The notes under the pieces were generated by a model. The model searched no databases, was not told the origin of the DNA, and worked only from the letters and a program-made list of their open reading frames with translations. Positions 10,411-60,946 of a stretch of DNA of 62,529 nucleotides are shown piece after piece. Made by a program: the position numbers and the translations under genes. The first letter of the stretch is position 1. The number at the start of each line of letters is the position of its first letter. Source of the DNA: a virus (lineage: Duplodnaviria; Caudoviricetes); IMG/VR virus record IMGVR_UViG_3300017707_001200, positions 1 through 62,529 of that record. One strand, written 5' to 3'.

Positions 10411-12861
10411 CTAACTCCCGTTCAGTTGGTATGAAACCTTGTTGTCCCCACGGTTGTTGAGGACTCTACCTGACTGTACCAGGAAGTTGATCCTGTCGTC
10501 AAGCTCACGCGGGGAGTTGCGGATCATGTTCCGGAAGCGGTGCAGGAGCTTGGCTGAGGTGACAGTGCCGCCCTGGCCCTTGATGTACGCTTCGATCTCG
10601 CTTACGTCTGCCGCGAACTCCGACTCACTTGTCGCTTCCACGACCCGAGCCAGGTTCTCGTACCACCCGGTGGCGTAGTGAATCGCCACGAGCGCATCGT
10701 TGAGCGTGAAGACTGTCTCTCCCCGATAGAGGGCCAGCAACGCCGCACACTTCCAGATCGTCTCACGACCCAGACGGGTGATTGCAGGCTCCAGAGCATC
10801 GTACTTCTCATGATTCTTCGCCGCTCGATCAAACGCCGCGTGAGCCTCTGTAAGCCGCTTCACCGCCTCCTCAGTCCCCCACACGGCAACTCGGGTGCTG
10901 AAGGTAGCCCTAGCGCTTGCGAGGTCTCCTGCGAGGTCGAAGGTGACAGGAGGAGAGTTCTTCTCGTTGTCGTTCTCGCTACGAGTTGCGCGATACTTGT
11001 CATCCGTCTCGACAGGAGGCTCTGCCCACATCCAGTTGTACCGGGCCATGAAACCCGTGGCAAACATGTCGGTGTTGATAAGCTTCAGAAGGCGGTCAGG
11101 GGTTGCGATCATAAAGATGTTGAAGCTTGTCTCCGCACTCTTACCGCGCAAATCCTTCAGGCTGATCTTGTTTGACGGGGGTACATCCCCCATGTAGTAG
11201 TTAGACAGGTCGTACTCCAGCGCCTTGACCCAATCCTTATCGCGAAGGGCCTGGAAGAAGCTCGCTGCCTCATCCTGGAAGATCATGCTGGGCTTGCCGT
11301 CCCGGGTGAGAAGTTCCAGAAGAATTCCTTCAGGCGACGACATTGCACCCAGGTTGTAGTAGCCGTCTCCGTCCTTCAAGAGATGATCCAGAACGTGCTT
11401 CAGAAATGCCGTCTCCGCGGACTTACCCGTACCTGAGTACCCCATCGGCATGAACCAGAGGTTGACGCCGAGATTCACACCCTTCGGGATCACCGCCTTC
11501 AGCCCGAATGCCATGCTCAGCGCCGTCCATGCAGCGGGCACCGCGTAGGCCGTATTCGTAAAGCCCTTAGAGGCCGACGCCACCAGATACTTGTCAATGA
11601 ACGTGCGCGTCCCGGCTACGATCTTCCGCTCTTCTACATTCAGGAAACTGCCGTTCTCCGCCGCGGGCAGAACGATCTCTTTTGTGGAATTCGTCTCAGG
11701 TGCTCGCTCAGGAAGCGTCGGATTCTCCCGAACAGGTTCCGGTTTCTCCCTGGCGCTCTGAACTCGGGCAAAAACGAACTCCAACCCCCATTCCCGGGCG
11801 ATATCCTTCGTGCGCGGAGAGTTCCACAGGACACTTGTCACCAGCAGATCATCGTCGGTTGACTTGATAAGTTCTGCCAGCAGTTCGCGGAAGGTATCCT
11901 TGTTTCCAGCCGCACCCGTGAGGACGCGGTCAGGAACACCCGCCGGGCCGATGCTCAGAGAATACGCCGGGAGGGACTTGCGAAGCTCCGTGGCCCCACC
12001 GTGCTTCTGAATACCCGAGGACAGTGCCTCCTGGAACTCGTAGTCCCATTCTTCCTCGGTGCGGGAGTGATCCCCCTCGCGAGCGTGAAAGAGTTCTTCG
12101 ATCAGGGCCAAAAGCTGGGGCACGCCAGGGTGACCCTCAGAACCCAGACGCACAGCTTCAAACTGACGCTCTACGAGATCAGAGTGGGAGTAGTCGTTGC
12201 CCCCCCGCTCAAATGCTTCACGGGCACGGTCCATCGCCGCCCGCACAATGACACTCGGCTCACCCTGTTCAAGTGACTGATACCAGTCACGAACGTCACC
12301 TTCGAAGTGCTCAGCGGAACGCACGGTCTTCTCATCCAGCAACCACTCAGGAGCGGGTGCAAAGGCGTCCCGGGAGGTAGGGACAGGGCCATTCCACACG
12401 GAGTACGATCCACCTCCACGCCGGTCTACGCCCTTAATGGCTCGGTAGTTGGAGTCTGGACCGAGCTTCACGCCTTCGGGAGCCGCATAGATATACTGCT
12501 TGCCGCCTGCACCGCTGATGGAATCGAAAGAGTGCGTTGTCGGCAAATCCAGCCAAGCCTTATCGAACTCCTCGAAGCCGTCCACCAGAATCTCGCCGGA
12601 AGGATCACGCTTCACATCGATGTCCGCCGCAACCAGCCCACTCGGCTCCATCCACACGCCGACCTCAGCCTTAGCGTGCCGTTCGAACAAATCTTCGAGA
12701 AGGAAGGGGTCGTTCGTTGCGTCGTAGAAACCGTTCGGGGTTCCTGGCTTCTTGGTCGTCTTGTACGGGTTCTCGGGGTCCCGGGTCACGTACACAGGGA
12801 ACGTCCACACCCCCAGGGAAGCCAGTGCCTTCGCCCTCTTGATGTTGTCAGCGGTCGTCAC
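10411..12861 (-). CDS. Bifunctional primase-polymerase fused to a P-loop helicase (DUF3987-like)
   Basis: TFPV...GFYDAT...DID prim-pol N-terminus; Walker A GYSGTGKS; FQDEA. Confidence 0.88.
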   Translation of the reverse strand: MTTADNIKRAKALASLGVWTFPVYVTRDPENPYKTTKKPGTPNGFYDATNDPFLLEDLFERHAKAEVGVWMEPSGLVAADIDVKRDPSGEILVDGFEEFDKAWLDLPTTHSFDSISGAGGKQYIYAAPEGVKLGPDSNYRAIKGVDRRGGGSYSVWNGPVPTSRDAFAPAPEWLLDEKTVRSAEHFEGDVRDWYQSLEQGEPSVIVRAAMDRAREAFERGGNDYSHSDLVERQFEAVRLGSEGHPGVPQLLALIEELFHAREGDHSRTEEEWDYEFQEALSSGIQKHGGATELRKSLPAYSLSIGPAGVPDRVLTGAAGNKDTFRELLAELIKSTDDDLLVTSVLWNSPRTKDIAREWGLEFVFARVQSAREKPEPVRENPTLPERAPETNSTKEIVLPAAENGSFLNVEERKIVAGTRTFIDKYLVASASKGFTNTAYAVPAAWTALSMAFGLKAVIPKGVNLGVNLWFMPMGYSGTGKSAETAFLKHVLDHLLKDGDGYYNLGAMSSPEGILLELLTRDGKPSMIFQDEAASFFQALRDKDWVKALEYDLSNYYMGDVPPSNKISLKDLRGKSAETSFNIFMIATPDRLLKLINTDMFATGFMARYNWMWAEPPVETDDKYRATRSENDNEKNSPPVTFDLAGDLASARATFSTRVAVWGTEEAVKRLTEAHAAFDRAAKNHEKYDALEPAITRLGRETIWKCAALLALYRGETVFTLNDALVAIHYATGWYENLARVVEATSESEFAADVSEIEAYIKGQGGTVTSAKLLHRFRNMIRNSPRELDDRINFLVQSGRVLNNRGDNKVSYQLNGS

Positions 12862-12889
12862 TGTTCTCCCTTCGTTGTCCCTGCTTACA

Positions 12890-18703: not shown

Positions 18704-18964
18704 TCATCGCGTCCACTCCGGCTGGATAAAGCTCTCAGCAATCTTCTTAAGAACTTCTGAGTTGTCTGCCTGGTAAACATCAAAGGTATTCGTGTTGATC
18801 GTCATTTCGGAGACACCCGGGAGAGCCTTAGAATTGAGGTTCACTTTCAAGTAGGCAAGACCTGTAAAGCAGTTCTTACTTTCATTGGCCCACGCCTTCA
18901 TGTATCCGGTGGTCTTGCTGTAGATATAGAGTTGGTCACCATCGGTAACATCGTCGTGCTGCAT
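18704..18964 (-). CDS. Hypothetical protein
   Basis: CGAAGGGAG RBS and upstream promoter. Confidence 0.65.
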   Translation of the reverse strand: MQHDDVTDGDQLYIYSKTTGYMKAWANESKNCFTGLAYLKVNLNSKALPGVSEMTINTNTFDVYQADNSEVLKKIAESFIQPEWTR

Positions 18965-18996
18965 TATTGCTCCCTTCGTAAGTCTTTCGTTTCACT

Positions 18997-19025
18997 AGGA
19001 TAACAGATCAAGCTACCCGGCGCAA
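18997..19025 (-). promoter_or_regulatory. SigA-like promoter
   Basis: TTGCGC-17-TATCCT. Confidence 0.6.
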
Positions 19026-19517
19026 CTTCCTAAGTTCACTTGCTCTTGCATTCCTAATTGCTCGGCACGTCTTACACTGCCGACCGCCTTTAACGTACCA
19101 CGCCGTATTCTCCTCGGTGTACTCGTGGTTCTGAGGACAGTGTGTTTTACGGGTCTCTGCGTGGGTTCCGTGTCTTACAGCATCTTGTAGGTTTTCTGAC
19201 TGGTCGCCCCATCTAAGGTTAGAGACGACGCTGTTCTGAGAGTCACCGTCACCGTGCAGCACAAGTGTCTTTCCCTCTGGCGCTGGACCAATGAAGGCCT
19301 TGGCAACCAAGCGATGTACGGTACACATCTTACGCTTACCGTCTTTGAAGAGGGGTACGATCCAATAGCCTGTGCGGTTCAACCTCAACTTCATAACTCG
19401 CCCCTTAATATTGCGACCCGCAATGTCTACTCTGTCCAGACTACGCACGCGAGCGAGGTTAGAGACCTCATAAAGACCTTCGTAATCCACAACCGACCGC
19501 CACTCCTCCTCGGTCAC
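19008..19517 (-). CDS. NUMOD4-HNH homing endonuclease
   Basis: WRSVVDYEGLYEVSN, VHRLVA...HGDGD..NSVVSNLRW, KTHCPQNH; paralog of 3882-4397. Confidence 0.92.
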   Translation of the reverse strand: MTEEEWRSVVDYEGLYEVSNLARVRSLDRVDIAGRNIKGRVMKLRLNRTGYWIVPLFKDGKRKMCTVHRLVAKAFIGPAPEGKTLVLHGDGDSQNSVVSNLRWGDQSENLQDAVRHGTHAETRKTHCPQNHEYTEENTAWYVKGGRQCKTCRAIRNARASELRKLRRVA

Positions 19518-22932: not shown

Positions 22933-22962
22933 GGTAAGTCCCTTCGTTGGTTCGTTGTACCC

Positions 22963-22991
22963 AGGATACCAAAAATCCCTCTCGACCGCAA
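22963..22991 (-). promoter_or_regulatory. SigA-like promoter
   Basis: TTGCGG-17-TATCCT. Confidence 0.65.
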
Positions 22992-23390
22992 GATCAAGAA
23001 GGAGATTGGTTTAAAAAATCCAATTGAGAAGTGCTGTCAACCCGTAAGCAATGCCCCACAGGACAACGACAACCACGGTAAAGACAGTGATCCTCACCAT
23101 ATCAGCCCAGTAATCATCTGAGTTGGGGTGAGGATCGTCAAACGGCGCTCCGAGGTCACTTCTTTGGCTAGTCATTAGCTTCGTAAGGGTTGTCAAAGGG
23201 CAGGTCTTCGTCTCTCCAGTCTTGAACGCCCCACTTAGCTCCCGACTGCTGGCCCTCGTTCCACGCTTCCGCCTTCACCTTCTGGAGCCAGCGCTTGAAC
23301 TCTTCCGATGATACCTCATGGGGTTTAAACTCTTCGTCCCAACCAAGCCACTTATAGCCGTCCTCGATATCTTCGGTACTCGGGGTGTAT

Positions 23391-24416: not shown

Positions 24417-24758
24417 TCGTCAAATCCATTCCAAGAAAAGGGGTCATCTATTACCTCCCAGGGCAACCGCTCCTCCAATTGCTTAATGTAAATAGCATCC
24501 TCCGCCAAAGTAGTCCGCATGTTTTCCAGTTCAGATTGGTGGACAATTGCGTATCCGTTATCCTGGAGAAGCTGCATAAAGATATTTGCAATTACTTCGC
24601 TCGGCTCTTTTGGTTCGGTCATCAGTCAACCTCCTCGATAGAATAGTAATTCGGGTCGCCGTTTAGCGCTTTGATAAAGTCTTTTGCGTCGGCGTTGGTC
24701 ACCTGATAGATCACGGTTTCGGTTGACATGTACTGTTCGATCCTCTTAGTAAACGGCA

Positions 24759-25043
24759 TTATCCCCACGTCCCTTCTACAGGCTCCGAGTAACCCCGCTT
24801 AGACGCATATGGCTCCAGGAAATCCAGCCGGTAGTGACGGGTTCCGCTCATCGTCAGAATGGCGACCCCTGGGAACGTTACTTCGTAGGTCTCCGCAGGA
24901 TTAGCCAAAGCCTCCCGGTGGTACGGTGCCCAGAACGTGCGAACGATCACGTCAGCGTCGAAGTTGAAGCCCTGAGGGTAGTTCGCGATTGTTGCATCCA
25001 GTGTGTCCATGAGATTCGGCATACTCATCTGCATCTTCTTCAT
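24759..25043 (-). CDS. Hypothetical protein
   Basis: CGAAGGGAG RBS. Confidence 0.65.
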   Translation of the reverse strand: MKKMQMSMPNLMDTLDATIANYPQGFNFDADVIVRTFWAPYHREALANPAETYEVTFPGVAILTMSGTRHYRLDFLEPYASKRGYSEPVEGTWG

Positions 25044-25633
25044 TACAGGCTCCCTTCGTTCGGTCGGACGTGTCCTGCATCAATCTGACGCTGGATTTCC
25101 GCGTTCACCATCTTGCCAAAGGCGTAAGGTTCGTCCGCGTGGATTGTGGAGATGTAAAGCTCTTCGTCATCCGGGATCGGGTTCCACTTCTTATCCCGCT
25201 TTTTCAGGTTCGCCATGTTATAGGTGACCGGCTCCGGAAGAACGTGGCCCAGGCTGTTGCGCTTCACCGTAAGGATAGCGTAGTCCTCGCTCCAAAGGAA
25301 GGTTGCATTCTCAAGCTCTGCCGTGCGCTTAGCATTCTGTACCGTCACTCGGTCCGGCTCCATCCCGGCAAGGTCACGCCAATACGTCCAGATGTCCCAG
25401 ACGTTCGTGCGCAATACCTCCCGGCGCAGAAGGGCCTGTGAGACTCCCGCTGCGTTGACACGGGCCAGAGTACGAGCGAACTCGATTTCGGCGTTCTCGG
25501 TGGCCTCTGCGGTCTCTCGCTTGATCTGTGCTTCGTACTTCCGGCGTACTTCTGCCTTGATCCGCTTCTTAGCCTCCTGCATCCGGCTACGTGCGTCCTG
25601 TGCCTCGATGATGAGGCTTGTTACGTCCTGCAT
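25043..25633 (-). CDS. Hypothetical protein, N-terminal coiled coil
   Basis: TAATG-coupled ORF. Confidence 0.7.
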   Translation of the reverse strand: MQDVTSLIIEAQDARSRMQEAKKRIKAEVRRKYEAQIKRETAEATENAEIEFARTLARVNAAGVSQALLRREVLRTNVWDIWTYWRDLAGMEPDRVTVQNAKRTAELENATFLWSEDYAILTVKRNSLGHVLPEPVTYNMANLKKRDKKWNPIPDDEELYISTIHADEPYAFGKMVNAEIQRQIDAGHVRPNEGSL

Positions 25634-25974
25634 TAGTTCCTCTTTCCGTGGTCAGTGATGACGTAAATCTCGGTCTCTTGGGGGGCTTCAGCCTTTGCTG
25701 CGGCTAGCATCCGCTTGCGGGCCGGTGGGTTTGCGGTGTGGATGGTGAGAATCTTGGGCCACGCGCTCCAAGAAATTATCCAATCCAATACCTTGAAGCC
25801 AGTGTCATCCCCGCCTAAGTCATGGTCAAGACTGATTTCTTCGAGACTGTCACCCATCTCTATAACAGCGGGGGTGCCGATCATGTACAGATGGCTAATT
25901 GCCGCATCCGAATTTCTTGCTACTGTCCAGCTATCGTCAGGTGCCGGACGTTCGTCCCCAACCCAAAGCTTCAT
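25633..25974 (-). CDS. Stand-alone receiver-like domain (cyclic-phosphate processing receiver family)
   Basis: MKLWVGDERPAP, ISLDHDLG, TIHTANP motifs. Confidence 0.8.
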   Translation of the reverse strand: MKLWVGDERPAPDDSWTVARNSDAAISHLYMIGTPAVIEMGDSLEEISLDHDLGGDDTGFKVLDWIISWSAWPKILTIHTANPPARKRMLAAAKAEAPQETEIYVITDHGKRN

Positions 25975-27265: not shown

Positions 27266-27410
27266 AAAAAGAAAAAGACGGAGACAGCCCCACACTGTCC
27301 CCGCCTTGGCTAGCTCGTCCCCAGACTCCTAGCCTTGTTGGCAATCCCCCATTGCCGTTGTGCCCGCTGCTATCCCCTTCGGTTCCCCAACCGATTCGGT
27401 AGAACAGGCA
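27266..27410 (-). ncRNA. Predicted small RNA of four G-looped hairpins ending in a U-tract terminator
   Basis: TCGGTT-GGGG-AACCGA; GGCAAT-GGGGG-ATTGCC; GGCTAG..GTC-TGGG-GAC..CTAGCC; GGCGGGGACAG-TGTGGGG-CTGTCTCCGTC-TTTTT. Confidence 0.7.
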
Positions 27411-27609: not shown

Positions 27610-27777
27610 TAAGTCTTAAACCTCCTTGATAGCGAATTCCCTATTTGGGTGAAACTACTGTCGGTTTTTGATAAAGGTTTCTGCATCCTCCCGAGAATAA
27701 AAGTCTTGGAGAAATGCCCAATAGCCTAGATAGTGTTCAAATACGCGGTACATTTCATCTTCCCTTTCGTTACTTCT

Positions 27778-33758: not shown

Positions 33759-33846
33759 CTGAGAAGTTCCTGAGAATTAACCCCTTTTGAGTCGATTTGC
33801 GATTCAGAGGGGGTATTCTTTTTATAGGGACAACGAAGGGAGCAAC

Positions 33847-34296
33847 GTGGTTGAATTTAAAGTGGGGGATCGGGTTCGTCTTACGGGGAAGAGTTGGCCG
33901 GATACCGAGTTGGACCTGGAGGTTTCATACGAGGTTTTACAGGTATCGAACGGCGTATCTTCTATCCAAGATGGCTGGGTTATTTATGATGACCACGGTG
34001 ATTGGCACGCGGATACAGTTAAAGATACCCCCGAAGAGTCATCATTTGAGCAGTCTGTCCGATATCACACAAACAAGATCGCGGACCTTCTCGTCAGCAA
34101 GAACAAGGCTTACGGCGACTCAGCACTAAACCCCGTGCGTATCTTCTCTCAGGCCAGTCGCATCGAGCAGTTGAACGTGCGCATCGATGACAAGATCAGC
34201 CGGATTCAGCGAGGAACGGACTACGGGGACGAGGATACGGTGCGGGACTTGATCGGCTACCTTGTGCTTCGACTTATCGCGGAAGAGTCGGAATGA
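33847..34296 (+). CDS. DUF1599/Nmad1-like protein with N-terminal SH3-like domain
   Basis: KNKAYGDS...VRIDDKISRI...DTVRDLIGY; FKVGDRVR. Confidence 0.75.
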   Translation: MVEFKVGDRVRLTGKSWPDTELDLEVSYEVLQVSNGVSSIQDGWVIYDDHGDWHADTVKDTPEESSFEQSVRYHTNKIADLLVSKNKAYGDSALNPVRIFSQASRIEQLNVRIDDKISRIQRGTDYGDEDTVRDLIGYLVLRLIAEESE

Positions 34297-34516: not shown

Positions 34517-35056
34517 ATGACTACGATTGCAGCAAAGATCACCAACGGCAAGGTGAAGATCGCCTGGGACTCTCAGGTGACATCGGGTAACAGCAAGAGC
34601 CTGGGCATGAACAAGGTCGTGAAGATCAACGATCAGTTCGCAGTGGGAATTGCAGGTCTGCTTCGCTTCGCCAATATCATCCACCGGACGAGCGTCAATA
34701 AGATTCACCCCTTTGACCTGAAGCAGGACGACTTCGACGGGTACGGATGGCTTCTCGATGATGCAGTTCCCGCCTGGCAGAAGGCTGTCAAGAAGGACCT
34801 TGACAATAACCCGATTGTGGACTCCTATGAGGATTACGTCCCGGACGGTCACTGCCTGATCGTTCTGGGCGGAAAGCTCTACACGATGGGGGTTGACTTT
34901 TCCGTCTCCACCCGCGGGGACTACGCCTCTATTGGCTCCGGTTCGGCTTTCGCTAATACGGCAATGCACCTGGGGAAGACCGCAAAGCAGGCCGTGGAGG
35001 TTGCAACAGAATTGGACCTCTACACCGGAGGCAATGTCAAGGAGATGACGGTTTAA
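34517..35056 (+). CDS. HslV/proteasome-beta-like Ntn hydrolase
   Basis: MTTIAA N-terminal Thr, AWDSQVT, K33-like KVV, IGSGS, DLYTGG. Confidence 0.85.
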   Translation: MTTIAAKITNGKVKIAWDSQVTSGNSKSLGMNKVVKINDQFAVGIAGLLRFANIIHRTSVNKIHPFDLKQDDFDGYGWLLDDAVPAWQKAVKKDLDNNPIVDSYEDYVPDGHCLIVLGGKLYTMGVDFSVSTRGDYASIGSGSAFANTAMHLGKTAKQAVEVATELDLYTGGNVKEMTV

Positions 35057-36435
35057 TATGGGCGCTTATACGCTTGACGAAGTACACGAAGAGATCAAGT
35101 CTATTTACTATTGGTGGGCAATCCAGGCCCCGGGAGTCACCCCGCTAGAGGAGGGTCACCTGGGGGACCTGTGGAGCCTTGCCGACCGGATGCACGCTGA
35201 GGAGGAGAACAATGACGCTTGAAACCGATAACGATATTATCCCCATCAATTGGGGTCTTACCCCTCATCCCCACGAGATTACACTCTCGATCTGTCCTCT
35301 TGATGAGATCGGCCTGCCATTCGAAAAGCGGAGTCTGAGGGTTAGCGTGCCCGATGACCCGAATGAGTGGCAGGATTTTGCAAAGGCGATCTCCACTCAG
35401 GTTGAGAAAACGCTTATCGTTATTTTGGAGGCGGGGAAGAATGGCTAAGGTATACCCCGAAAAGCTCGATATCGACACGAAGCTGCTGGACGTGTTCACG
35501 GATGCCGCCGAACAGCTTATCAACGCTTACGAAGAAGGTAAGGTTACTGCCGAGAGTTGCATCGCAGGTATCAGCGACCTCATTACCCTGACCAAGAAGG
35601 TTCCACGCTCTGTGGCGATCACGATTGGAGATGAAGATGAAGATGACTAGCCGCTACGATGAATACACGCTCACGCACTGGGAGGAGCCAGACGGACTCA
35701 CCTACGGCCATTTCGTGGCGAAGAACGGATACGTCTCGGTAACGCCCGAGCTTATCTACAAGATGCTGAAGTCGTTTGAACCGGTGGCCTACCAGGAGGG
35801 CGAGATCACGCTGGACATTCCTGTTAAGTCCCTGCTGGACTACTGGAAGTCGCTCGGCGGAGAATACGGGGTGGACAAGTAATGGACTACGGCGCAGGAC
35901 TTCTGAAGCACCACCTTCTGTCTGAGCTTGTGGCAGAGGGTCTTCTGGAAAAGGAGGGCGTGGATTTCTATTACCGTGGCCCCCACCAGGACTACCGGAT
36001 CGGAATGACGATTACCGCGGTGAACAAGACCGTTCGATTGAGTGAGGACTAAGACACATGGCCGATATCTATATTGAACTTAAGACTAAGGCCGATGGAA
36101 GTGCCCGTAAAATCGCCAAAGAGATTCTGAAGGTGACCAAGGCATTTCCGAAGGTGAGATTCCGTGTCGATACGGAGTTAGACAATGTGGTCACCTTAAC
36201 GGGCAATATTCCTAGAAAGGACTGAAAATGGTTGACAAGTTCATCAATTACAGTGAAAACGTGGATACTATTCCCGAAGCGTTCTCTTTCATCATGGAGT
36301 ATATGGACCAGTTTAAAAGCCCCAACATCTCTATCCAGCCATATACGTCTTACGAAAGTCTTTCCGATTTGACTGACGACGATGCAGGAGAGCAGAAATT
36401 CGGAGTGAGTGTTTCCGGCACGGTAGAATAGAGAT

Positions 36436-36543
36436 AACAGGTCGGAGTCTCCCTCCCTTCGCTCCATCCCCTGTTGAGAGGCCCCTTCCCTGGCCTCGGG
36501 ACCCCCTGAGAGTTTGAGCATTGCTCCTCCCAGGGGGTCTTTC
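36436..36543 (+). ncRNA. Predicted late small RNA with two C-rich loops and a terminator
   Basis: TAGAAT at 36424; stems AACAGG/CCTGTT + GGAG/CTCC, GAGGCC/GGCCTC, GACCCCCTG/CAGGGGGTC-TTT. Confidence 0.7.
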
Positions 36544-36595
36544 AACATTTGTACCTCGAAATGAGGACAAATGCTAAACTAGGAGGGGAGGCATA

Positions 36596-37096
36596 ATGAC
36601 TGACAGTGAAATTGATCCGCGTATCCAGAGAATTGTGTGGAAGGGCCTCGGCAATAAGAGTGTCCGGGAGATGTCGGAGGAGACCGGCCTATCACCCGAG
36701 GAAATCTTTGCTGTCAAGCGGGAACTTCTCGGTGCGGTGGATGTTCTTACCGTTCAGGAGAAGCGTCAGAAAATCCTTATCGACATGGAGAAGTTGGCAC
36801 AGGACGCACTGGATCGCGCAGAAGACTCCAGCGACGAGTTCTTCGCAGGTATGATGAATGCCGCCCGGGGGGCAATGAAGGACATGCTGACGGCACTTAA
36901 TCAGACTGCCAAAGGCGAGCAGGAGGCAATTGAGCGCCTGAACGATCTGCGTATTCGGGAACTACTGAATCTTATCGACCGGACCGTATCGTACACGTTG
37001 GCTGAGATCGCAACCACGTACAGTCTGGAAGAGAACGACCTCCAGGACATCTTCCAGAAGCACTTGAAGCCCGCCGCTCAGGAACTTGAAGCGTGA
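36596..37096 (+). CDS. Probable terminase small subunit
   Basis: N-terminal HTH, helical, overlaps the large terminase. Confidence 0.6.
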   Translation: MTDSEIDPRIQRIVWKGLGNKSVREMSEETGLSPEEIFAVKRELLGAVDVLTVQEKRQKILIDMEKLAQDALDRAEDSSDEFFAGMMNAARGAMKDMLTALNQTAKGEQEAIERLNDLRIRELLNLIDRTVSYTLAEIATTYSLEENDLQDIFQKHLKPAAQELEA

Positions 37097-38718
37097 CAGG
37101 TCTTTATCTCGTAGCGGACGGCGCACTCAGTCAGATTGAGAAGCGTCGTGAGAAGCAACGTTACTTCTCTAACCCGGTTCTTTGGGCTGAGGAGTACCTG
37201 GGGATCAAGCCGTGGAGCGCTCAGGCGGATGTCGCGATGAGCGTTGTCGATAACAAGAACGTTGTCGTCAAGGCCGGTCACGAGGTGGGTAAGTCCTGGC
37301 TTGCGGGGCTTCTTATCTGTTGGTGGGTGGATACCCGCTGGGACCTCCCGGGTGGATGCTTTGTGGTTTCCACCGCACCTTCTACACGTCAGATCAACGC
37401 TATTGTGTGGCGAGAAGTTCGCAAGTTCCACAACCTCGCGAAGAAGCGTTTCAACGAAGGTCTTGTCGATCACCCACTCCCCGGTTACGTGACATCCGAC
37501 GCACATTGGCGGCTCCCCGACGGTATTGAGCTTGGGTACGGCGCAAAGCCTGCGGATTCTGCCGATAAGGAATCGGGTAACGACTCTATGTCGGGTATCC
37601 ACGCCCGGTACGTTCTAGCCGTGGGTGACGAGGCCGTGGGTCTGTCCAAGGGCCTTATTGGTGATCTTGCCAACATCACCTCCAATGCTACCTCTCGTCG
37701 TTTCCTGATCTGTAACCCCACCAACCCGCTTTCCTACGTGGCGTCCATCTTTAAGCGTCAGTTGAAGGGCTGGAAGACGCATACCATCAGTGTGTTCGAC
37801 TCACCGAACTTCCACGGGCGCGGAATCTGTAACTCTGAATCTTGCAAGCGCTGGGAAGAGCATCAGAGGATGGAGCCGTATGAGGGGTTCCCCGTTGAGG
37901 TTCTGGAAACCCTGGTCGATCAGTCTTACGTAGACGATATGGCGGAGGAGCACGGTGTTGATTCCCCCACATACATCTCCCGTGTTACTGGTGAGTTCGC
38001 ATGGGACATGGGTTTCACCCTCATCCGCCCAGAGGACATTGCAAAGTCCCTGGATTGCGAAATCGTTCCCGACTACGGAAGTGTTCCGCGTCTCGGAGTA
38101 GACGTGTCCCGTTCTAAGCGAGGGGATAAGAACACGGTCTACAAGTGGCAGGATGGCCGTCTGAGATTCGTGGATGACTGGAACGACCCGGACGCGATGG
38201 CAACAGCCGAACGTATTCACGACCATGCGATTAGACTTGCGGTGGAGGAGGTACGTATTGACGGCCAGGGTCTCGGAGGGCCTATTGCTGACCGTATCCG
38301 AATGCTCGCTCAGGGGGCGTATCAGGTTTACGAAATTCTGGGTAACGACCCCAGCCCCGACCTTGACCGCTGGCAGAACTTCCGAGCCTGGAGTTGGTGG
38401 GACCTTCAGGACAGGATGTCCAAGGGTCTCGTGGATATCGATCCGGAAGATGAGAAACTTCAGGAGCAACTTCTCGGTGTCGAGATCAAAAAGCGCACCA
38501 CGGGCCGCAACAACATCCTTCTGGAAAGCAAGGAGGAAATGGCAAAGCGGGGTATTCATTCCCCCGACCACGCCGACGCCGCAGTTTACGCCTCCGTGGA
38601 CTTGACCTCCTGGCAGAACCGCCTGCCCGCAGGAACCGTCATCGCAAAGGACCGAGAAGAGATTCCGGACATGGGTCTTTTCGAGTACATTAGGATGCCC
38701 GGACGCCCCCTTCTCTAG
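37093..38718 (+). CDS. terL: Terminase large subunit
   Basis: AGHEVGKS Walker A, GDEA, CNP, LGVDVSR, SPDHADA nuclease motifs. Confidence 0.95.
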   Translation: MTGLYLVADGALSQIEKRREKQRYFSNPVLWAEEYLGIKPWSAQADVAMSVVDNKNVVVKAGHEVGKSWLAGLLICWWVDTRWDLPGGCFVVSTAPSTRQINAIVWREVRKFHNLAKKRFNEGLVDHPLPGYVTSDAHWRLPDGIELGYGAKPADSADKESGNDSMSGIHARYVLAVGDEAVGLSKGLIGDLANITSNATSRRFLICNPTNPLSYVASIFKRQLKGWKTHTISVFDSPNFHGRGICNSESCKRWEEHQRMEPYEGFPVEVLETLVDQSYVDDMAEEHGVDSPTYISRVTGEFAWDMGFTLIRPEDIAKSLDCEIVPDYGSVPRLGVDVSRSKRGDKNTVYKWQDGRLRFVDDWNDPDAMATAERIHDHAIRLAVEEVRIDGQGLGGPIADRIRMLAQGAYQVYEILGNDPSPDLDRWQNFRAWSWWDLQDRMSKGLVDIDPEDEKLQEQLLGVEIKKRTTGRNNILLESKEEMAKRGIHSPDHADAAVYASVDLTSWQNRLPAGTVIAKDREEIPDMGLFEYIRMPGRPLL

Positions 38719-57467: not shown

Positions 57468-59150
57468 ATGGCTCTCCCTAATCTTCCCACCGCGGGACAA
57501 AGCCCCTGGTACGTCCCTCGAACGGACTGGGATAATGCGGTTGAAGCGGAACTAGAGGGTCGTCTCTCTGACGCATCACTCTCTTCCACTATCGTCAACC
57601 GGACTAAGCAGAACTACGGATTGGGTCTATCCCCTTATTCGTTCGGTGCTGTGGGTGACGGTGTGGCGGATGACGGTGCCGCGCTCCAAGCCTTCTTCAA
57701 CTACGTGACAGCAAACGACGTGGGGGTAGGCTACGTCGGGGGTATCTTCCGATCTTCACTCCCGCTCACGATGGGGGCCGCCCTCACCAAGAGCTTCGTT
57801 GGGAAGATGGACCTCACTTTCTCCGGAACGTCAGGGGTCATCGGCCTCACCATCGGGGGTTGGGCTAACGGATATTGGCAGCATATGCGCCTGTATGGCC
57901 CCTCTTCTGGGACGACCAACTATGCGTCAAAGACGTGGCACACAGGTCTGTACCTTACAAATGGAACGGCACGGAACCAGTTCGGCAAGATCGAGGGTGG
58001 GAACTGGTCTTTCTCCTTGATCGCCACTGCCGACGCCCCGGCAAACACCACCGCTAATGACTTCGGAAACATCCGCGCTCAGGACTGTGGCTCGGGTCAC
58101 CGAACGGCGAATGGAAGCACGAGGTATGGTCTGACGACCACCTGGTCCAATCCTGTGAACAACGGATCGTCCGGCTCGAACGCTCAGAGCACAACTATCG
58201 ACGTCGCCACCCTCCCGCCGCAGTACATCATCGATGGATTCCACGGAGCCGTTGGATCAGCCCCCTACATGATTCGGATAACGGACAACTTGGGGAAGAC
58301 CCGACTTCACTACATTCAGTCAATTGATGTTGCCAACAGCAGATTGACAATTTTCCCGTGGGTTGACCCTGCAACGACTCCGACACTTGCTGACTATCAG
58401 TGGGGTGGCGCTCTTTATACAAAGGGTTCTGACTCTAACGTTCAGTCCTTCACGATGATTGATGCTGTGCGATGCGGTAGCGCTTTGGTAGTTGCCTCTC
58501 TCTACGGCCCCGTGGGAAAGAGGATCATCTCTCAGTTCACGGGTGCCGCCGTTGTACTCGGAGCTTCTCCTAGTTCAGCCATTCTCGGGTCCAGCCTTTC
58601 GGGGTTGTATTACGAAAACAACATGGAGGACTTCATCTATGTCGCCCGCCCCAATAGCTCAAACGTGTACAACTACATCGACTCTGACTACGCCCTGAAT
58701 CTCGCTAAGACATACGTAGTAAGCGCTCCACGAGTCTCGGGCACCTTCACGGATGCTCCCGCGTCTCAGGGATTTGGCGGGACGATGTTCGCAGTTCGCG
58801 GGCGGTTCTACAACTTTGAGAAGACTCCACGTAATGGCGGATATGGTGCGACCCAGACGATTGCTCTGAACAGACAGGACATGCAGGTACCGCTTTACGG
58901 CAATACCTTTACGATCAATGTGACCCTTGACCTAGATATACACCGCCTCTTCGGATACGATACCGTACAATTCCTCATTGCATCAACAACGGGGGGCGCA
59001 CCCTCGGGGACCATTACATTCAACGCACCGTCCGGGTACACAATTAATGGTGGTGCCGGACCTGTTGTATTCTCTGGACTTGTGGCCCCGACCCGCTATC
59101 TTTTCCGTTTTGATACCGTGGCAATGAACGTCGTCGTATTCGCAATCTAG
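57468..59150 (+). CDS. Tailspike-like beta-helix protein
   Basis: FGAVGDGVADDGAALQA pectate-lyase-3-type motif. Confidence 0.75.
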   Translation: MALPNLPTAGQSPWYVPRTDWDNAVEAELEGRLSDASLSSTIVNRTKQNYGLGLSPYSFGAVGDGVADDGAALQAFFNYVTANDVGVGYVGGIFRSSLPLTMGAALTKSFVGKMDLTFSGTSGVIGLTIGGWANGYWQHMRLYGPSSGTTNYASKTWHTGLYLTNGTARNQFGKIEGGNWSFSLIATADAPANTTANDFGNIRAQDCGSGHRTANGSTRYGLTTTWSNPVNNGSSGSNAQSTTIDVATLPPQYIIDGFHGAVGSAPYMIRITDNLGKTRLHYIQSIDVANSRLTIFPWVDPATTPTLADYQWGGALYTKGSDSNVQSFTMIDAVRCGSALVVASLYGPVGKRIISQFTGAAVVLGASPSSAILGSSLSGLYYENNMEDFIYVARPNSSNVYNYIDSDYALNLAKTYVVSAPRVSGTFTDAPASQGFGGTMFAVRGRFYNFEKTPRNGGYGATQTIALNRQDMQVPLYGNTFTINVTLDLDIHRLFGYDTVQFLIASTTGGAPSGTITFNAPSGYTINGGAGPVVFSGLVAPTRYLFRFDTVAMNVVVFAI

Positions 59151-59179: not shown

Positions 59180-60946
59180 ATGGGATTTCGCGTAGATATC
59201 GAAGGTCTGAGGGTTGAGATTAGCGAGTATTCCGTCACGGAAGCCTCAACTCCTCTAGCCGCTGGAGACTCCTCGGGTCAAGTAGGGACCTTTTCGATCA
59301 CCCTCCCCATTCCTGACCAGTACGTTCTTTTGGGTACGGTCATCGGAGGTTATGGGTACGGCGAGGGACCCTACGGCGAGGGGCCCTACGGCGGCACCAC
59401 TTTCTTTGGTATACCGAACTCACCCTGGAAAGTGATTCGCCAGGTCGGACCACAAATCCTGATCGACAAATCCGTTCGAATCTTCGATTCCCGCAAGGGG
59501 TTCACTCTCGGGACTATCACGGATGCGGTGGAGAGTCGAGACGGGGGGACCATCCAACTTTCGGGAGTTTCGCGACTGGGTTCTCTTAATGTCTACGGTA
59601 TTCAGGCTCAGCCTTTCGTGGGGACTCTCCAGGACGCATTCGAGTATTACCTGAGTCTCGCCGGGATCACCACGGATCTTTTTGTTGACGAGAGTATCGC
59701 CTCCCGGGGTGTGGTGTTCCCCGGGTGGTCGGGTGAACTGTGGTACTACCTGAAAATGATGGCGGCGGCTCAGGACTGTGATATCTCACTCGTTTCCGGC
59801 GTTGTTCTTCTTCGTCCCATCCGGGCGAGAATTGCCACCGAAAACCGGGATACCTCACGAACGATTAGCACGGGGTCTGCGACATTGGCCCAGGCGGTCG
59901 AGGTTTATCAATACAATAATCGTCAAATCACCAACGAACTCGTGTACCCTATTGGGGGATGGACTCCCGAGGTTCAGGTAATGACCGTGAACGCGGGGGA
60001 AACCACCGAATACACCTTGGAGCTTTCTGCGTCTGTTTCAAGCATCCAGGAACCTGTCATGCAGACCTTTGTGGCGCAGGGCTACAACTCCTCCTCGGTG
60101 TACACCATTGTGGCGGATGACGGTCTCGCCGTTAGCCCCGCTCTCTGGACGGCACAGGGCGGCTCCCTCTCGGTATCTATTAGCGAGGACACAACGCACC
60201 TTATTGTCAAGCTTACGGGGGCTACAGGCGTGCCCACGACAGCCGGGGCTGCGGCTCAGAACTTCTCTGTCGCGCTGGGGGCCGATACGACGGGAAACCG
60301 CTATTCCACGTTCCGCATCGTCGGTTCCGGGGTCGCCTATACCAAAGTAAAAAAGCGCATCCGGACGGGTGTTCCCGCGTCGAAGACTGCAACAGATGTG
60401 GGCGTGACAATCGACAACCCCTTCATCTCTACAGTCAATGACCTCTACCGGGCGGGCACACGAGCCGCGAAAAAGTATGCGGGAGTCGGAATGACCCTCT
60501 CTGGAAATGTCATTGCGATCAACAGGCGAGGGGATTCAGGCGCGGCGACGTACCCCACTTACGGAGAAGTACAGGACGCTATCGAAGACGAAATTCTAGG
60601 GACACCAACCTATGCCAACGTCGAGACGTACTACGACGGGCTGGGGTTGACGAGCTACGAGGATATTCGACAGCACTGGTTCCAAGTCTTCCGCAACGAC
60701 GAGAGAGATCAGGTCTTCGGAAACGCGCAAGGCGCACGAATCTACGACCGTAAGAGCCGTAGGTGGTACCGTATTCGTGATGCGTCTCTAGCCCCCGGTG
60801 GTATCTCTATCGGAAGCGCCGACGATGATCTCACCCTGGGAGACATTCAAGGCCTCTATGATAATCTGACCTACGGAGATGTCCAAACTATTCTTGACCC
60901 CTTTACCTATCACGAGGCGGAACTTGCCGGAATGTGGAGACCCTAA
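59180..60946 (+). CDS. Minor tail protein (baseplate hub position)
   Basis: 588 aa, synteny, AGGAGG RBS. Confidence 0.7.
   Translation: MGFRVDIEGLRVEISEYSVTEASTPLAAGDSSGQVGTFSITLPIPDQYVLLGTVIGGYGYGEGPYGEGPYGGTTFFGIPNSPWKVIRQVGPQILIDKSVRIFDSRKGFTLGTITDAVESRDGGTIQLSGVSRLGSLNVYGIQAQPFVGTLQDAFEYYLSLAGITTDLFVDESIASRGVVFPGWSGELWYYLKMMAAAQDCDISLVSGVVLLRPIRARIATENRDTSRTISTGSATLAQAVEVYQYNNRQITNELVYPIGGWTPEVQVMTVNAGETTEYTLELSASVSSIQEPVMQTFVAQGYNSSSVYTIVADDGLAVSPALWTAQGGSLSVSISEDTTHLIVKLTGATGVPTTAGAAAQNFSVALGADTTGNRYSTFRIVGSGVAYTKVKKRIRTGVPASKTATDVGVTIDNPFISTVNDLYRAGTRAAKKYAGVGMTLSGNVIAINRRGDSGAATYPTYGEVQDAIEDEILGTPTYANVETYYDGLGLTSYEDIRQHWFQVFRNDERDQVFGNAQGARIYDRKSRRWYRIRDASLAPGGISIGSADDDLTLGDIQGLYDNLTYGDVQTILDPFTYHEAELAGMWRP

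What the first reader, a model, noticed from the sequence alone, without database searches (positions are those of the whole stretch)
36424..36543. Late small RNA whose loop is exactly antisense to the ribosome-binding motif of the phage's own genes
Seen: a TAGAATAG promoter motif, then two hairpins with C-rich loops (TCTCCCTCCCTTCG and CCTTCCCT) and a terminator, just upstream of the terminase genes. Loop 1 contains CTCCCTTCG (36453-36461). Its complement CGAAGGGAG is the RBS of the primase-helicase (12866-12874), of the ORFs starting at 18964 (18970-18978) and 25043 (25050-25058), and of the Nmad1-like gene (33834-33842). An 8-nt match lies at 22939-22946, and loop 2 matches AGGGAAG at 27759-27765. 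Established: actinobacterial 6C RNA and other CU-rich-loop sRNAs repress by pairing to G-rich RBSs. Inference: a phage-encoded translational switch that silences replication/early genes when packaging starts. Late genes mostly use AGGAG-type or leaderless starts and would escape. Caveat: SD-like composition inflates matches.
Basis: partly seen in the sequence, partly recalled or inferred. Interest (0 to 1): 0.8.

Follow-up and report, generated by a model that had tools for sequence, protein, structure and literature searches.

The report
Phage small RNA with C-rich loops
A Microbacterium-type phage carries, just before its DNA-packaging genes, a conserved gene for an RNA of about 108 bases whose exposed C-rich loops could pair with ribosome-binding sites, most exactly those of some of the phage's own early genes, so it may be a translation brake, although the RNA has not yet been observed.

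Summary
Positions 36424-36545 (+) carry a TAGAAT -10 of the phage's recurrent TAGAATAG class, two hairpins with C-rich loops and a terminator-like hairpin. The phage is an uncultured relative of the cluster GB Microbacterium phages.

The element is a real, conserved RNA-level structure. Six homologues each fold alone into the same shape. Seven distinct sequences keep 93% of pair cells through 17 compensated pairs while the loop TCCCTCCCTTC never changes. No Rfam family matches it, 6C included.

CGAAGGGAG, the exact complement of loop 1, precedes four start codons and is among the most recurrent 9-mers in the ribosome-binding-site (RBS) windows. It recurs in WaterT and Cassita, partly at non-orthologous genes. 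Permuted loops rarely do as well (24/2000, 14/2000, 226/2000).

Against the self-targeting switch:
- Loop pairing tracks generic anti-Shine-Dalgarno (anti-SD) pairing (rho 0.72).
- The terS site is itself a top binder.
- A cofold ranking singles out only the primase.
- A sister subfamily with other loops shows no own-RBS match.
- No RNA data exist.

Verdict: the sRNA gene is well supported. 6C-like RBS pairing is plausible (about 0.45). The self-targeting early-to-late switch is unproven (about 0.3). The scan has noted similar RNAs before terminase genes in other actinobacterial phages.

The parts
36424..36431 (+). P1: -10 hexamer TAGAAT inside the recurrent TAGAATAG motif. It overlaps the stop codon of the upstream 67-aa ORF. 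The predicted transcript start is about 36436, at the base of hairpin 1.
   Evidence: TAGAATAG has 11 matches, all on the + strand, against 0.83 expected. Most sit at gene junctions of the structural block. A TAnnnT hexamer lies 5-8 nt before the first paired base in 11 of 12 family members; for the twelfth, WaterT, it was read by eye.
36436..36475 (+). Hairpin 1: outer stem 36436-36441/36470-36475, inner stem 36444-36448/36461-36465, loop CUCCCUCCCUUC at 36449-36460. CTCCCTTCG at 36453-36461 is the complement of the RBS motif.
   Evidence: Folds. Helices 1 and 2 of the alignment are 100% paired, with 7 of 9 pairs changed on both sides. The loop TCCCTCCCTTC is identical in 7 of 7 distinct sequences.
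36478..36497 (+). Hairpin 2: stem GAGGCC/GGCCUC with the C-rich loop CCUUCCCU at 36484-36491.
   Evidence: Fold. Helix 3 is 92.9% paired, with 3 of 6 pairs compensated. The loop is C-rich in every relative.
36498..36552 (+). Hairpin 3 (36498-36541): a long G+C-rich stem with the conserved apical part UUGAGCA..GCUCC, followed by the U-rich tail UUUCAACAUUU. It is the presumed intrinsic terminator and 3' end of the RNA.
   Evidence: Fold. Helix 4 has 19 pairs, 7 of them compensated. The simple terminator scan did not list it, because the loop exceeds 8 nt and the U run is interrupted.
36572..36580 (+). P2: an extended -10 (TGCTAAACT) 21 nt before the terS ATG. It is a separate promoter for the packaging and structural operon.
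   Evidence: An equivalent TAAACT, TAGAAT or TACAAT stands directly before the terS RBS in the relatives.
36581..37096 (+). terS: the RBS AGGAGGGGAGG (36581-36591) and the 166-aa ORF 36596-37096. terL follows at 37093-38718.
   Evidence: The RBS is the fourth-best predicted binder of loop 1 (-17.7 kcal/mol).
12866..12874 (-). CGAAGGGAG, 4 nt before the GTG of the 816-aa Prim-Pol/helicase gene (10411-12861). A TAGACT -10-like hexamer lies 34 nt before the start.
   Evidence: The same RBS is kept in WaterT and Cassita although the proteins are only 61.6% identical. It ranks 3 of 100 in the cofold ranking.
18970..18978 (-). CGAAGGGAG, 5 nt before the ATG of an 86-aa gene. TTGCGC-17 nt-TATCCT lies upstream.
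   Evidence: The WaterT ortholog has ACGAGGGGAG, one change that would leave a G-U pair.
25050..25058 (-). CGAAGGGAG, 6 nt before the ATG of a 94-aa gene, lying inside the end of the gene before it.
   Evidence: No ortholog was found in WaterT, Cassita, G001 or G004.
33834..33842 (+). CGAAGGGAG, 4 nt before the GTG of a 149-aa gene (33847-34296).
   Evidence: It matches only function-unknown PHROG families. The orthologs have GAAAGGGAG (WaterT) and AGAAGGGAG (Cassita).
22939..22946 (-). CGAAGGGA (an 8-nt match) before the GTG of an 88-aa gene. TTGCGG-17 nt-TATCCT lies upstream.

Best explanation
Positions ~36436-36545 (+) are the gene of a phage small RNA of about 108 nt.

- **How it is made.** It is transcribed from its own -10 (TAGAAT, of the TAGAATAG class that precedes the structural genes, hence probably late). 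It ends at the hairpin 3 terminator, just before a second promoter that drives terS/terL.
- **Shape.** It folds into two hairpins that display invariant C-rich loops; loop 1 contains the anti-SD core CCUCC.
- **Proposed mechanism.** Like 6C, RsaE/RoxS, RNAIII and sX13, the loops pair with G-rich Shine-Dalgarno regions and block 30S binding.
- **Best candidate targets.** These are the phage's own leaders carrying (A)CGAAGGGAG: the primase-helicase gene and four small genes, several of them promoter-proximal.

What is shown: the structure, its conservation, covariation, strand, promoter-like and terminator-like ends, and the complementarity. What is inferred: that the RNA is made, when it is made, that it pairs, and that pairing represses.
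For: **Structure and family**
- Six homologues each fold alone into the same three hairpins, with z from -3.4 to -5.4.
- On 7 distinct sequences, 93.3% of pair cells are standard pairs against 75.3% in shuffles (0/500). 17 of 34 pairs changed on both sides. Slid controls give 45-55%.
- Loop 1, TCCCTCCCTTC, is identical in 7 of 7 sequences.
- About 20 G-U cells fit the + strand only. Reverse-strand model hits are weak (E 0.76 and 0.079).

**Ends**
- TAGAATAG occurs 11 times, all on the + strand, against 0.83 expected.
- A TAnnnT hexamer lies 5-8 nt before hairpin 1 in 11 of 12 members.
- In subfamily B the conserved block begins near the -10 hexamer and runs through the terminator. The RNA is 95-97% identical where terS/terL are 58-64% identical.

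**Targets**
- All 4 non-self CGAAGGGAG sites are RBSs.
- ACGAAGGGA and CGAAGGGAG are the most recurrent 9-mers in the RBS windows.
- A complement of 9 nt or more occurs in 4/100, 4/97 and 2/99 RBS windows of the three subfamily A genomes, and in 0 of 98, 77, 97 and 91 in four others.
- Permuted loops reach the observed count in 24/2000 and 14/2000 trials.
- The motif sits at non-orthologous genes in the window and in WaterT.
- The primase RBS follows the loop type: CGAAGGGAG in A genomes. In G001 it is GGAGGAGGAG, beside a G001 loop holding CCUCCUC.
- RBS populations favour their own loop in 13 of 14 genome comparisons (p 0.005-0.01 for A versus G001).

**Mechanistic precedent**
Against: - No transcript evidence exists.
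- Loop 1 pairing energy correlates with generic anti-SD pairing (Spearman 0.72), so much of the match is SD composition.
- In Cassita the permutation test is not significant (226/2000).
- The three A genomes are related, so their counts are not independent. The 9-mer was also chosen after seeing the data.
- A cofold ranking puts the five motif genes at 3, 25, 31, 32 and 63 of 100.
- The stronger pairing with early genes (p 0.02) drops to p 0.12 after correcting for SD strength.
- terS, a late gene, is among the best predicted binders.
- Subfamily B loops have no enriched complement in their own complete genomes.
- The U tract of the terminator is weak, and the simple scan missed it.
- The reverse strand folds as well by energy alone (z -4.2).
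- Gene starts come from my own crude caller. It picks starts by SD strength and missed at least one WaterT site.
Confidence: 0.45

Rival explanations
1. The same small RNA is made, but its real targets are host mRNAs or G-rich SD sites in general. It would then be a functional mimic of the host's own 6C-type sRNA, or a general SD blocker used for host takeover. The exact match to a few phage leaders would be a by-product of SD-like composition.
For: - At least one loop in every subfamily contains the anti-SD core CCUCC.
- Pairing energies track anti-SD pairing (rho 0.72).
- Subfamily B shows no own-RBS complement, yet is 95-97% conserved across phages with 58-64% identical flanking genes. That pattern is expected if the whole RNA must match a fixed host partner.
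- The 6C L3 loop is UCCUCCCCCCCU, and overexpressing 6C arrests growth (PMC6486639, passages).
Against: - The C of CGAAGGGAG lies upstream of the purine-rich SD-like core, yet it is kept at all RBS-type sites and is matched by the loop's G.
- The 9-mers are found only in genomes carrying that loop.
- RBS populations favour their own loop.
- No host genome could be searched.
- The 6C model does not hit the locus.
Confidence: 0.2
2. The element acts in cis on transcription of the late operon. One version is a put-like or attenuator RNA that decides whether polymerase from P1 or from the upstream genes passes hairpin 3. Another is simply the structured 3' end of the upstream operon. Either way it would have no trans-acting role.
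For: - The order promoter, two hairpins, terminator, packaging genes resembles lambda PR'-6S-tR' and HK022 put (recalled, not tested).
- Relatives without the C-loop hairpins at this spot keep only a terminator hairpin here (L008, L012, L013). The terminator may therefore be the older part.
Against: - A separate -10 stands directly before terS in all relatives, and further TAGAATAG copies precede later genes. Late expression therefore does not need read-through.
- In G001 and G003 a related RNA lies elsewhere in the structural block, not before terS.
- Invariant loops on variable stems suggest that the loops are the working part.
Confidence: 0.12
3. The C-rich loops dock onto another partner. 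One candidate is the phage's own G-loop RNA (27266-27410, minus strand), as a sponge and counter-sponge pair. Another is a protein that binds C-rich loops.
For: - The window encodes a structured RNA with GGGG, GGGGG and UGUGGGG loops (z -3.75).
- G-loop clusters stand at the matching end of the early arm in Cassita and WaterT.
- The G-loop RNA contains CGAAGGGGA.
- Loop-loop contacts suffice for 6C (PMC6486639, passage).
Against: - The whole-RNA duplex energy is not unusual: 59 of 500 shuffles do as well.
- The CGAAGGGGA stretch is mostly paired in the predicted fold.
- No G-loop cluster was found in G001, G004 or G005, which do carry C-loop RNAs.
- No sequence homolog was found by blastn.
Confidence: 0.1
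4. It is a DNA-level site, such as a packaging or regulator binding site, or it has no function beyond termination.
For: - The position is next to terS.
- In the L010 type the motif TTCCCTCCCTT occurs twice, 32 bp apart.
Against: - Compensatory stem changes and G-U pairs point to a single-stranded RNA fold.
Confidence: 0.05

Closest known systems
6C sRNA of Actinobacteria (Rfam RF01066; M. tuberculosis 6C/B11)
   Same: - A short RNA in the same host phylum, with hairpins displaying C-rich loops.
- 6C's loops bind G-rich RBS regions (panD, dnaB) and repress without a chaperone (PMC6486639, passages).
- The loop compositions are alike: 6C L3 is UCCUCCCCCCCU.
   Different: - The RF01066 model gives no hit at E<=10, either on the window or on the locus, so homology is not detectable.
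- This RNA is phage-encoded.
- It has a late-type phage promoter.
- Its loops are CCCUCCCUUCG and CCUUCCCU, not C runs.
- The best complements are the phage's own leaders.
C-rich-loop anti-SD riboregulators of Bacillota (RsaE/RoxS, RNAIII hairpins) and Xanthomonas sX13
   Same: The design is the same: several hairpins whose C-rich loops pair with SD regions. This knowledge is recalled, apart from the family names in search listings (PMC8216469 abstract).
   Different: - The hosts are unrelated.
- sX13 scored only 11.9 bits against a gathering score of 50 (E 8.2).
- No other Rfam family reached threshold.
Highly expressed non-coding RNAs of mycobacteriophages L5, D29 and StarStuff
   Same: [quoted passage not shown]
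   Different: - They lie at the right genome end and in the 63-64 intergenic region, not before terS.
- They are early and very abundant.
- The passages I read describe no C-rich-loop design.
- No sequence relation was tested.
Lambda PR'-6S RNA-tR' and HK022 put RNAs
   Same: A promoter, a short structured transcript and a terminator stand directly before the packaging and late genes. For put, the transcript is two stem-loops. This is recalled, not tested.
   Different: - Here a second promoter follows the terminator.
- The conserved parts are the loops, and they look like anti-SD sequences.
- In G001 and G003 the related RNAs lie elsewhere.

Membership tests
6C RNA (Rfam RF01066) | A match to the family covariance model at or above the gathering score (47 bits) | tested here: not met
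   - No family reached gathering score on the window.
- RF01066 was not listed at E<=10 on 36300-36700.
- The direct RF01066 search of the record gave 0 matches at E<=10. In that search none of the 14 control genomes, C. glutamicum included, passed the cut-off either, so its sensitivity is doubtful.
6C RNA (Rfam RF01066) | Hairpins with conserved cytosine-rich loops | tested here: met
   The loops are CUCCCUCCCUUC and CCUUCCCU. TCCCTCCCTTC is invariant in 7 of 7 distinct sequences.
6C RNA (Rfam RF01066) | Loops pair with G-rich RBS regions and repress translation | not testable with these tools
   Only complementarity is shown.
Free-standing bacterial or phage sRNA gene | Its own promoter, with the transcript start at the 5' end of the conserved structure | tested here: inconclusive
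   - A -10-like hexamer lies 5-8 nt before hairpin 1 in 11 of 12 members.
- TAGAATAG is 13-fold enriched and strand-specific.
- The sigma-70 consensus scan found no promoter with both hexamers.
- No 5'-end data exist.
Free-standing bacterial or phage sRNA gene | An intrinsic terminator at the 3' end | tested here: inconclusive
   A long G+C-rich hairpin with compensated pairs is followed by UUUC..UUU. The consensus terminator scan did not list it.
Free-standing bacterial or phage sRNA gene | Structure conserved with covariation, and not coding | tested here: met
   There is no + strand ORF across 36432-36595. GenBank relatives annotate nothing there.
sX13 (Rfam RF02232) | A match to the covariance model at the gathering score (50 bits) | tested here: not met
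   11.9 bits, E 8.2.
put-type processive antiterminator RNA | A nascent two-hairpin RNA that makes polymerase read through downstream terminators | not testable with these tools
   The architecture is compatible. A separate promoter before terS argues against need for it.

The most novel reading that the evidence does not exclude
The phage family runs a private ribosome-binding-site code. A late small RNA displays, in an invariant loop, the exact complement of an extended RBS (CGAAGGGAG; in sister lineages other words such as GAGGAGG or CGAGAGGGGAA). That RBS marks the promoter-proximal early and replication genes. Loop and RBS change together between lineages, so the phage can switch off its own early programme at the time of packaging. 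The same C-rich loops might also neutralise the phage's early G-loop RNA.
Probability: 0.25. Interest if true: 0.8.

Novelty: new variant of a known kind. Interest (0 to 1): 0.6.

Why it matters
Phage-encoded riboregulators are few, and I found none described for Microbacterium phages. GenBank records of the five relatives annotate nothing at this locus.

What this locus offers:
- It is a conserved, Rfam-unlisted RNA family built like the actinobacterial 6C sRNA, but carried by lytic phages.
- Cultured members exist (WaterT, Lifes, LeeroyJenkins, BarnCat, Cassita on M. paraoxydans). Northern blots, loop mutants and reporter fusions are therefore feasible at once.
- If the RNA represses the phage's own early leaders, it would be an RNA-based early-to-late translational switch.
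- If it acts on host mRNAs, it would be a phage mimic of a host sRNA class.

Together with earlier notes of this scan on other actinobacterial phages, it suggests that small RNAs with anti-SD-like loops next to terminase genes are a recurrent phage device.

Tried and rejected
**Searches that found nothing**
- Rfam at gathering score on the whole window gave nothing.
- Rfam in E-value mode on the locus gave only sX13 (E 8.2) and a flavivirus element (E 8.8).
- Rfam in E-value mode on five relatives' loci gave only a chance snoRNA hit.
- The RF01066 search of the record gave no match.

**Sequencing runs**
- No RNA holder was listed.
- Laying four DNA-contig runs on 36350-36650 gave only DNA variants. 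One divergent contig was too gapped to read for covariation. Nothing on expression can be said.

**MAFFT alignments**
- Alignments A2 and A3 misplaced the hairpin 1 arms, and RNAalifold on A2 gave a wrong hairpin 1. I replaced them with model-guided alignments.

**Collection scans**
- A loose loop pattern on viral-contig hit at least 117 stretches. The R1 model was run over the 80 loci that were listed and found 0 at E<=0.1. These were chance matches.
- The genome-contig scan with the TerL alignment gave one MAG contig and no Microbacterium genome. I therefore could not fetch the host's 16S tail or its 6C gene, and that comparison was dropped.

**G-loop RNA as partner**
- The whole-RNA duplex energy is not unusual (59/500 shuffles).
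- blastn found no homolog in relatives.
- A first permissive hairpin scan was uninformative. A stricter one is reported.

**A correction of my own**
- I first concluded that G001 and G003 lack a C-loop RNA, and read their lack of CGAAGGGAG as co-absence. Searches show that both carry a related RNA elsewhere, with other loops. That argument was withdrawn and replaced by the own-versus-other loop test.

**Limits of the statistics**
- The three A genomes are not independent.
- Gene starts come from my own caller.
- Several tests were run and were not corrected for multiplicity.
- Supplementary files of the papers were not seen. Those of PMC6486639 hold the 6C structures and target lists and might sharpen the comparison.
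Full report
**What the window is.** The window is a complete IMG/VR virus record of 62,529 bp with a 123-bp terminal repeat. Its nearest cultured relatives are the Microbacterium paraoxydans phages WaterT, LeeroyJenkins, Lifes, BarnCat and, more distantly, Cassita. Cassita is assigned to cluster GB. It is a lytic siphovirus whose genome has defined ends and direct terminal repeats (PMC9670968, whole text). Genes at about 860-27,000 run on the minus strand; these include a Prim-Pol/DUF3987 primase-helicase. Genes from about 28,000 onward run on the plus strand, with terS at 36596-37096 and terL at 37093-38718. The finding lies in the 164-nt gap between a 67-aa ORF (36228-36431) and terS.

**Observation check.**
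- TAGAATAG sits at 36424-36431.
- Hairpin 1 has the loop CUCCCUCCCUUC (36449-36460). Hairpin 2 has the loop CCUUCCCU (36484-36491).
- A long third hairpin (36498-36541) is followed by UUUCAACAUUU.
- CGAAGGGAG occurs 5 times against 1.11 expected, and 0 of 100 shuffles reach 5. One occurrence is the loop's own complement. The other four all lie 4-6 nt before an ATG or GTG.
- The 8-nt match at 22939 and AGGGAAG at 27759 are also RBS-placed.

**The element is a conserved RNA structure.** Protein-guided retrieval, which is unbiased with respect to the RNA, brought in TerS and TerL relatives from GenBank phages, IMG/VR and metagenomes.
- Upstream of terS, WaterT-type phages, Cassita and the contigs L003, L107, L009 and L010 carry the same three-hairpin unit. 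Its stem sequences differ but the loop TCCCTCCCTTC is identical.
- Six homologues folded separately give the same architecture, with z from -3.4 to -5.4.
- On a model-guided alignment of 7 distinct sequences, 93.3% of pair cells are standard pairs. Shuffles give 75.3% (0/500 reach the observed value) and slid partners give 45-55%. 17 of 34 pairs changed on both sides. This alignment was fitted to the structure, which favours it somewhat.
- About 20 G-U cells and the weak reverse-strand model hits assign the RNA to the + strand. Folding energy alone would not: the reverse strand has z -4.2.
- A second subfamily, B (L007, L056, L057, L060, L104), has the same layout with the loops CCACUCCCAC and CCCACCCCUCCU. 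Its RNA is 95-97% identical between phages whose terS and terL are only 58-64% identical. The upstream sequences diverge up to the -10 hexamer.
- A model built from the 7 sequences finds B only marginally (E 0.006-0.03). It also picked up related one- or two-loop RNAs elsewhere in the structural gene block of G003 (E 0.0012) and G001 (E 0.32; judged by eye to share the design).

**Ends of the RNA.** TAGAATAG occurs 11 times, always on the + strand, against 0.83 expected. It is mostly found right after stop codons at junctions of structural genes, often as TGnTAGAAT, an extended -10. It is thus a phage promoter-like motif of the late block.
- In 11 of 12 family members a TAnnnT hexamer ends 5-8 nt before the first paired base of hairpin 1. 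For WaterT I read this by eye. This is the spacing expected between a -10 and a transcript start.
- Hairpin 3 with its U-rich tail would end the RNA at about 36545, giving about 108 nt.
- A second extended -10 (TGCTAAACT, 36572-36580) stands 21 nt before the terS ATG and is present in all relatives.
- The consensus scans found neither a two-hexamer promoter nor the terminator, so both ends remain inference.

**The target question: evidence for.**
- (A)CGAAGGGA(G) is the most recurrent 9-mer in the RBS windows of the window (5, 4 and 4 of 100 genes). CGAAGGGA is the most recurrent 8-mer in WaterT.
- WaterT has 5 and Cassita 3 further CGAAGGGAG sites. Three in each are RBS-placed by eye.
- The primase RBS, CGAAGGGAGaacaGTG, is identical although the proteins are 61.6% identical. 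Other sites sit at genes with no ortholog in the other lineage.
- Complements of 9 nt or more to loop 1 occur only in genomes carrying that loop: 4/100, 4/97 and 2/99, against 0 of 98, 77, 97 and 91.
- Permuted loops reach the observed count in 24/2000 (window), 14/2000 (WaterT) and 226/2000 (Cassita) trials.
- In G001 the primase ortholog has GGAGGAGGAG, and the G001 RNA loop holds CCUCCUC.
- Across genome pairs with different loops, the RBS population favours its own loop in 13 of 14 comparisons. The p values are 0.005-0.01 for A genomes against G001, 0.02-0.11 against G003, and weak for B.

**The target question: evidence against.**
- Loop 1 contains the anti-SD core CCUCC (the core as stated in the abstract of PMC3522020).
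- Its pairing energies correlate with those of a generic 16S tail (rho 0.72). That tail was recalled, not fetched.
- The stronger pairing with minus-strand genes (p 0.02) becomes p 0.12 after correction for SD strength.
- terS is the fourth-best binder.
- A cofold ranking places the five motif genes at 3, 25, 31, 32 and 63 of 100.
- Subfamily B has no own-genome complement: TGGGAGTG occurs only as the loop itself in two near-complete genomes.

**Most likely mechanism.** I conclude that this is a free-standing, probably late, small RNA. Its C-rich loops act as 6C, RsaE/RoxS, RNAIII and sX13 do, pairing with G-rich SD regions and occluding them. [quoted passage not shown] The best candidate targets are the phage's own CGAAGGGAG leaders, first of all the primase-helicase. 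Shown: structure, conservation, strand, ends by motif, and complementarity. Inferred: transcription, timing, pairing and repression.

**Rivals.**
- Host or general SD targets, or mimicry of the host 6C class.
- A cis role at the terminator before terS.
- Docking to the phage's G-loop RNA (27266-27410, minus strand) or to a protein.
- A DNA-level site. This is disfavoured by the covariation and by genome ends lying about 6 kb away.

**Comparison and novelty.** The RNA works like 6C but is not a detectable member of it. No Rfam 15 family matches any subfamily. GenBank relatives annotate nothing at the locus. Four full-text searches found no description of such a phage RNA. Mycobacteriophage non-coding RNAs are known, but at other positions (PMC5712189, passages). 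Earlier notes of this scan describe similar small RNAs with anti-SD-like loops before terminase genes in other actinobacterial phages. They are unchecked AI notes on unrelated DNA (no sequence look-alike) and are not counted as evidence. I class the finding as a new variant of a known kind.

**Verdict.**

| Claim | Probability |
|---|---|
| The small-RNA gene is real | about 0.8-0.9 |
| It acts by loop-to-RBS pairing | about 0.45 |
| It is a self-targeting early-to-late switch | about 0.25-0.3 |

Interest 0.6.

Noticed in passing
window 24639-24646 (+): One of the 11 TAGAATAG copies lies inside the minus-strand early block and points rightward. It would drive a transcript antisense to the early genes at about 24650-25650, including the 94-aa gene with the CGAAGGGAG RBS. 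This is a possible late antisense RNA.
   Followed up: no
window 27266-27410 (-): A structured RNA with G-run loops (GGGG, GGGGG, UGGG, UGUGGGG), z -3.75. Clusters of similar G-loop hairpins stand at the corresponding end of the early arm in Cassita (59432-59564) and WaterT (58440-58640). None was found in G001, G004 or G005.
   Followed up: partly
window 18979-19030 and 22947-23000 (-); 33780-33833 (+): The leaders carrying the CGAAGGGAG or CGAAGGGA RBS are preceded by TTGCG(C/G/A), 17-18 nt, then TATCCT or a T-rich hexamer. WaterT has TTGCGC-18-TATGAT before its 52559 site. This may be a separate early or middle promoter class with -35 TTGCGN.
   Followed up: no
L007 1010-1115; L056, L057, L060, L104 about 1838-1943: The subfamily B RNA is 95-97% identical between phages whose adjacent terS and terL genes are only 58-64% identical at the DNA level. 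The RNA is far better conserved than the essential genes beside it, either through strong constraint or through recent exchange of the module.
   Followed up: partly
L039 16725-16850 (G001 36725-36850, +); L042 14951-15032 (G003 34951-35032, -): Related C-loop RNAs lie at other positions in the structural gene block. Their loops are UGCCCCU and UUACCCUCCUCUCUCG (G001) and UUCCCCUCCUCUCG (G003). Each is preceded by a TAAGAT or TAGGAT hexamer. G003 has two leaders reading CGAGAGGGGAATTG before ATG that match both ends of its loop.
   Followed up: partly
L002 3443-3495 (WaterT; same in Lifes, LeeroyJenkins, BarnCat): WaterT-type phages carry an extra imperfect palindrome of about 46 nt between the RNA's terminator and the terS -10 (gtgttagat...atctaacac). 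It is absent from the window and from Cassita and may be an operator or a further hairpin.
   Followed up: no
window 34517-35056 (+): A 179-aa protein matching the HslV peptidase family (PHROG 1040, E 7.5e-31; Pfam Proteasome, E 1.9e-5), two genes' distance upstream of the RNA.
   Followed up: partly
WaterT RBS windows (genome-wide): GATAACACAAA recurs in 4 of the 97 upstream windows of WaterT genes. It is another repeated leader or operator motif, unrelated to the C-loop RNA.
   Followed up: no
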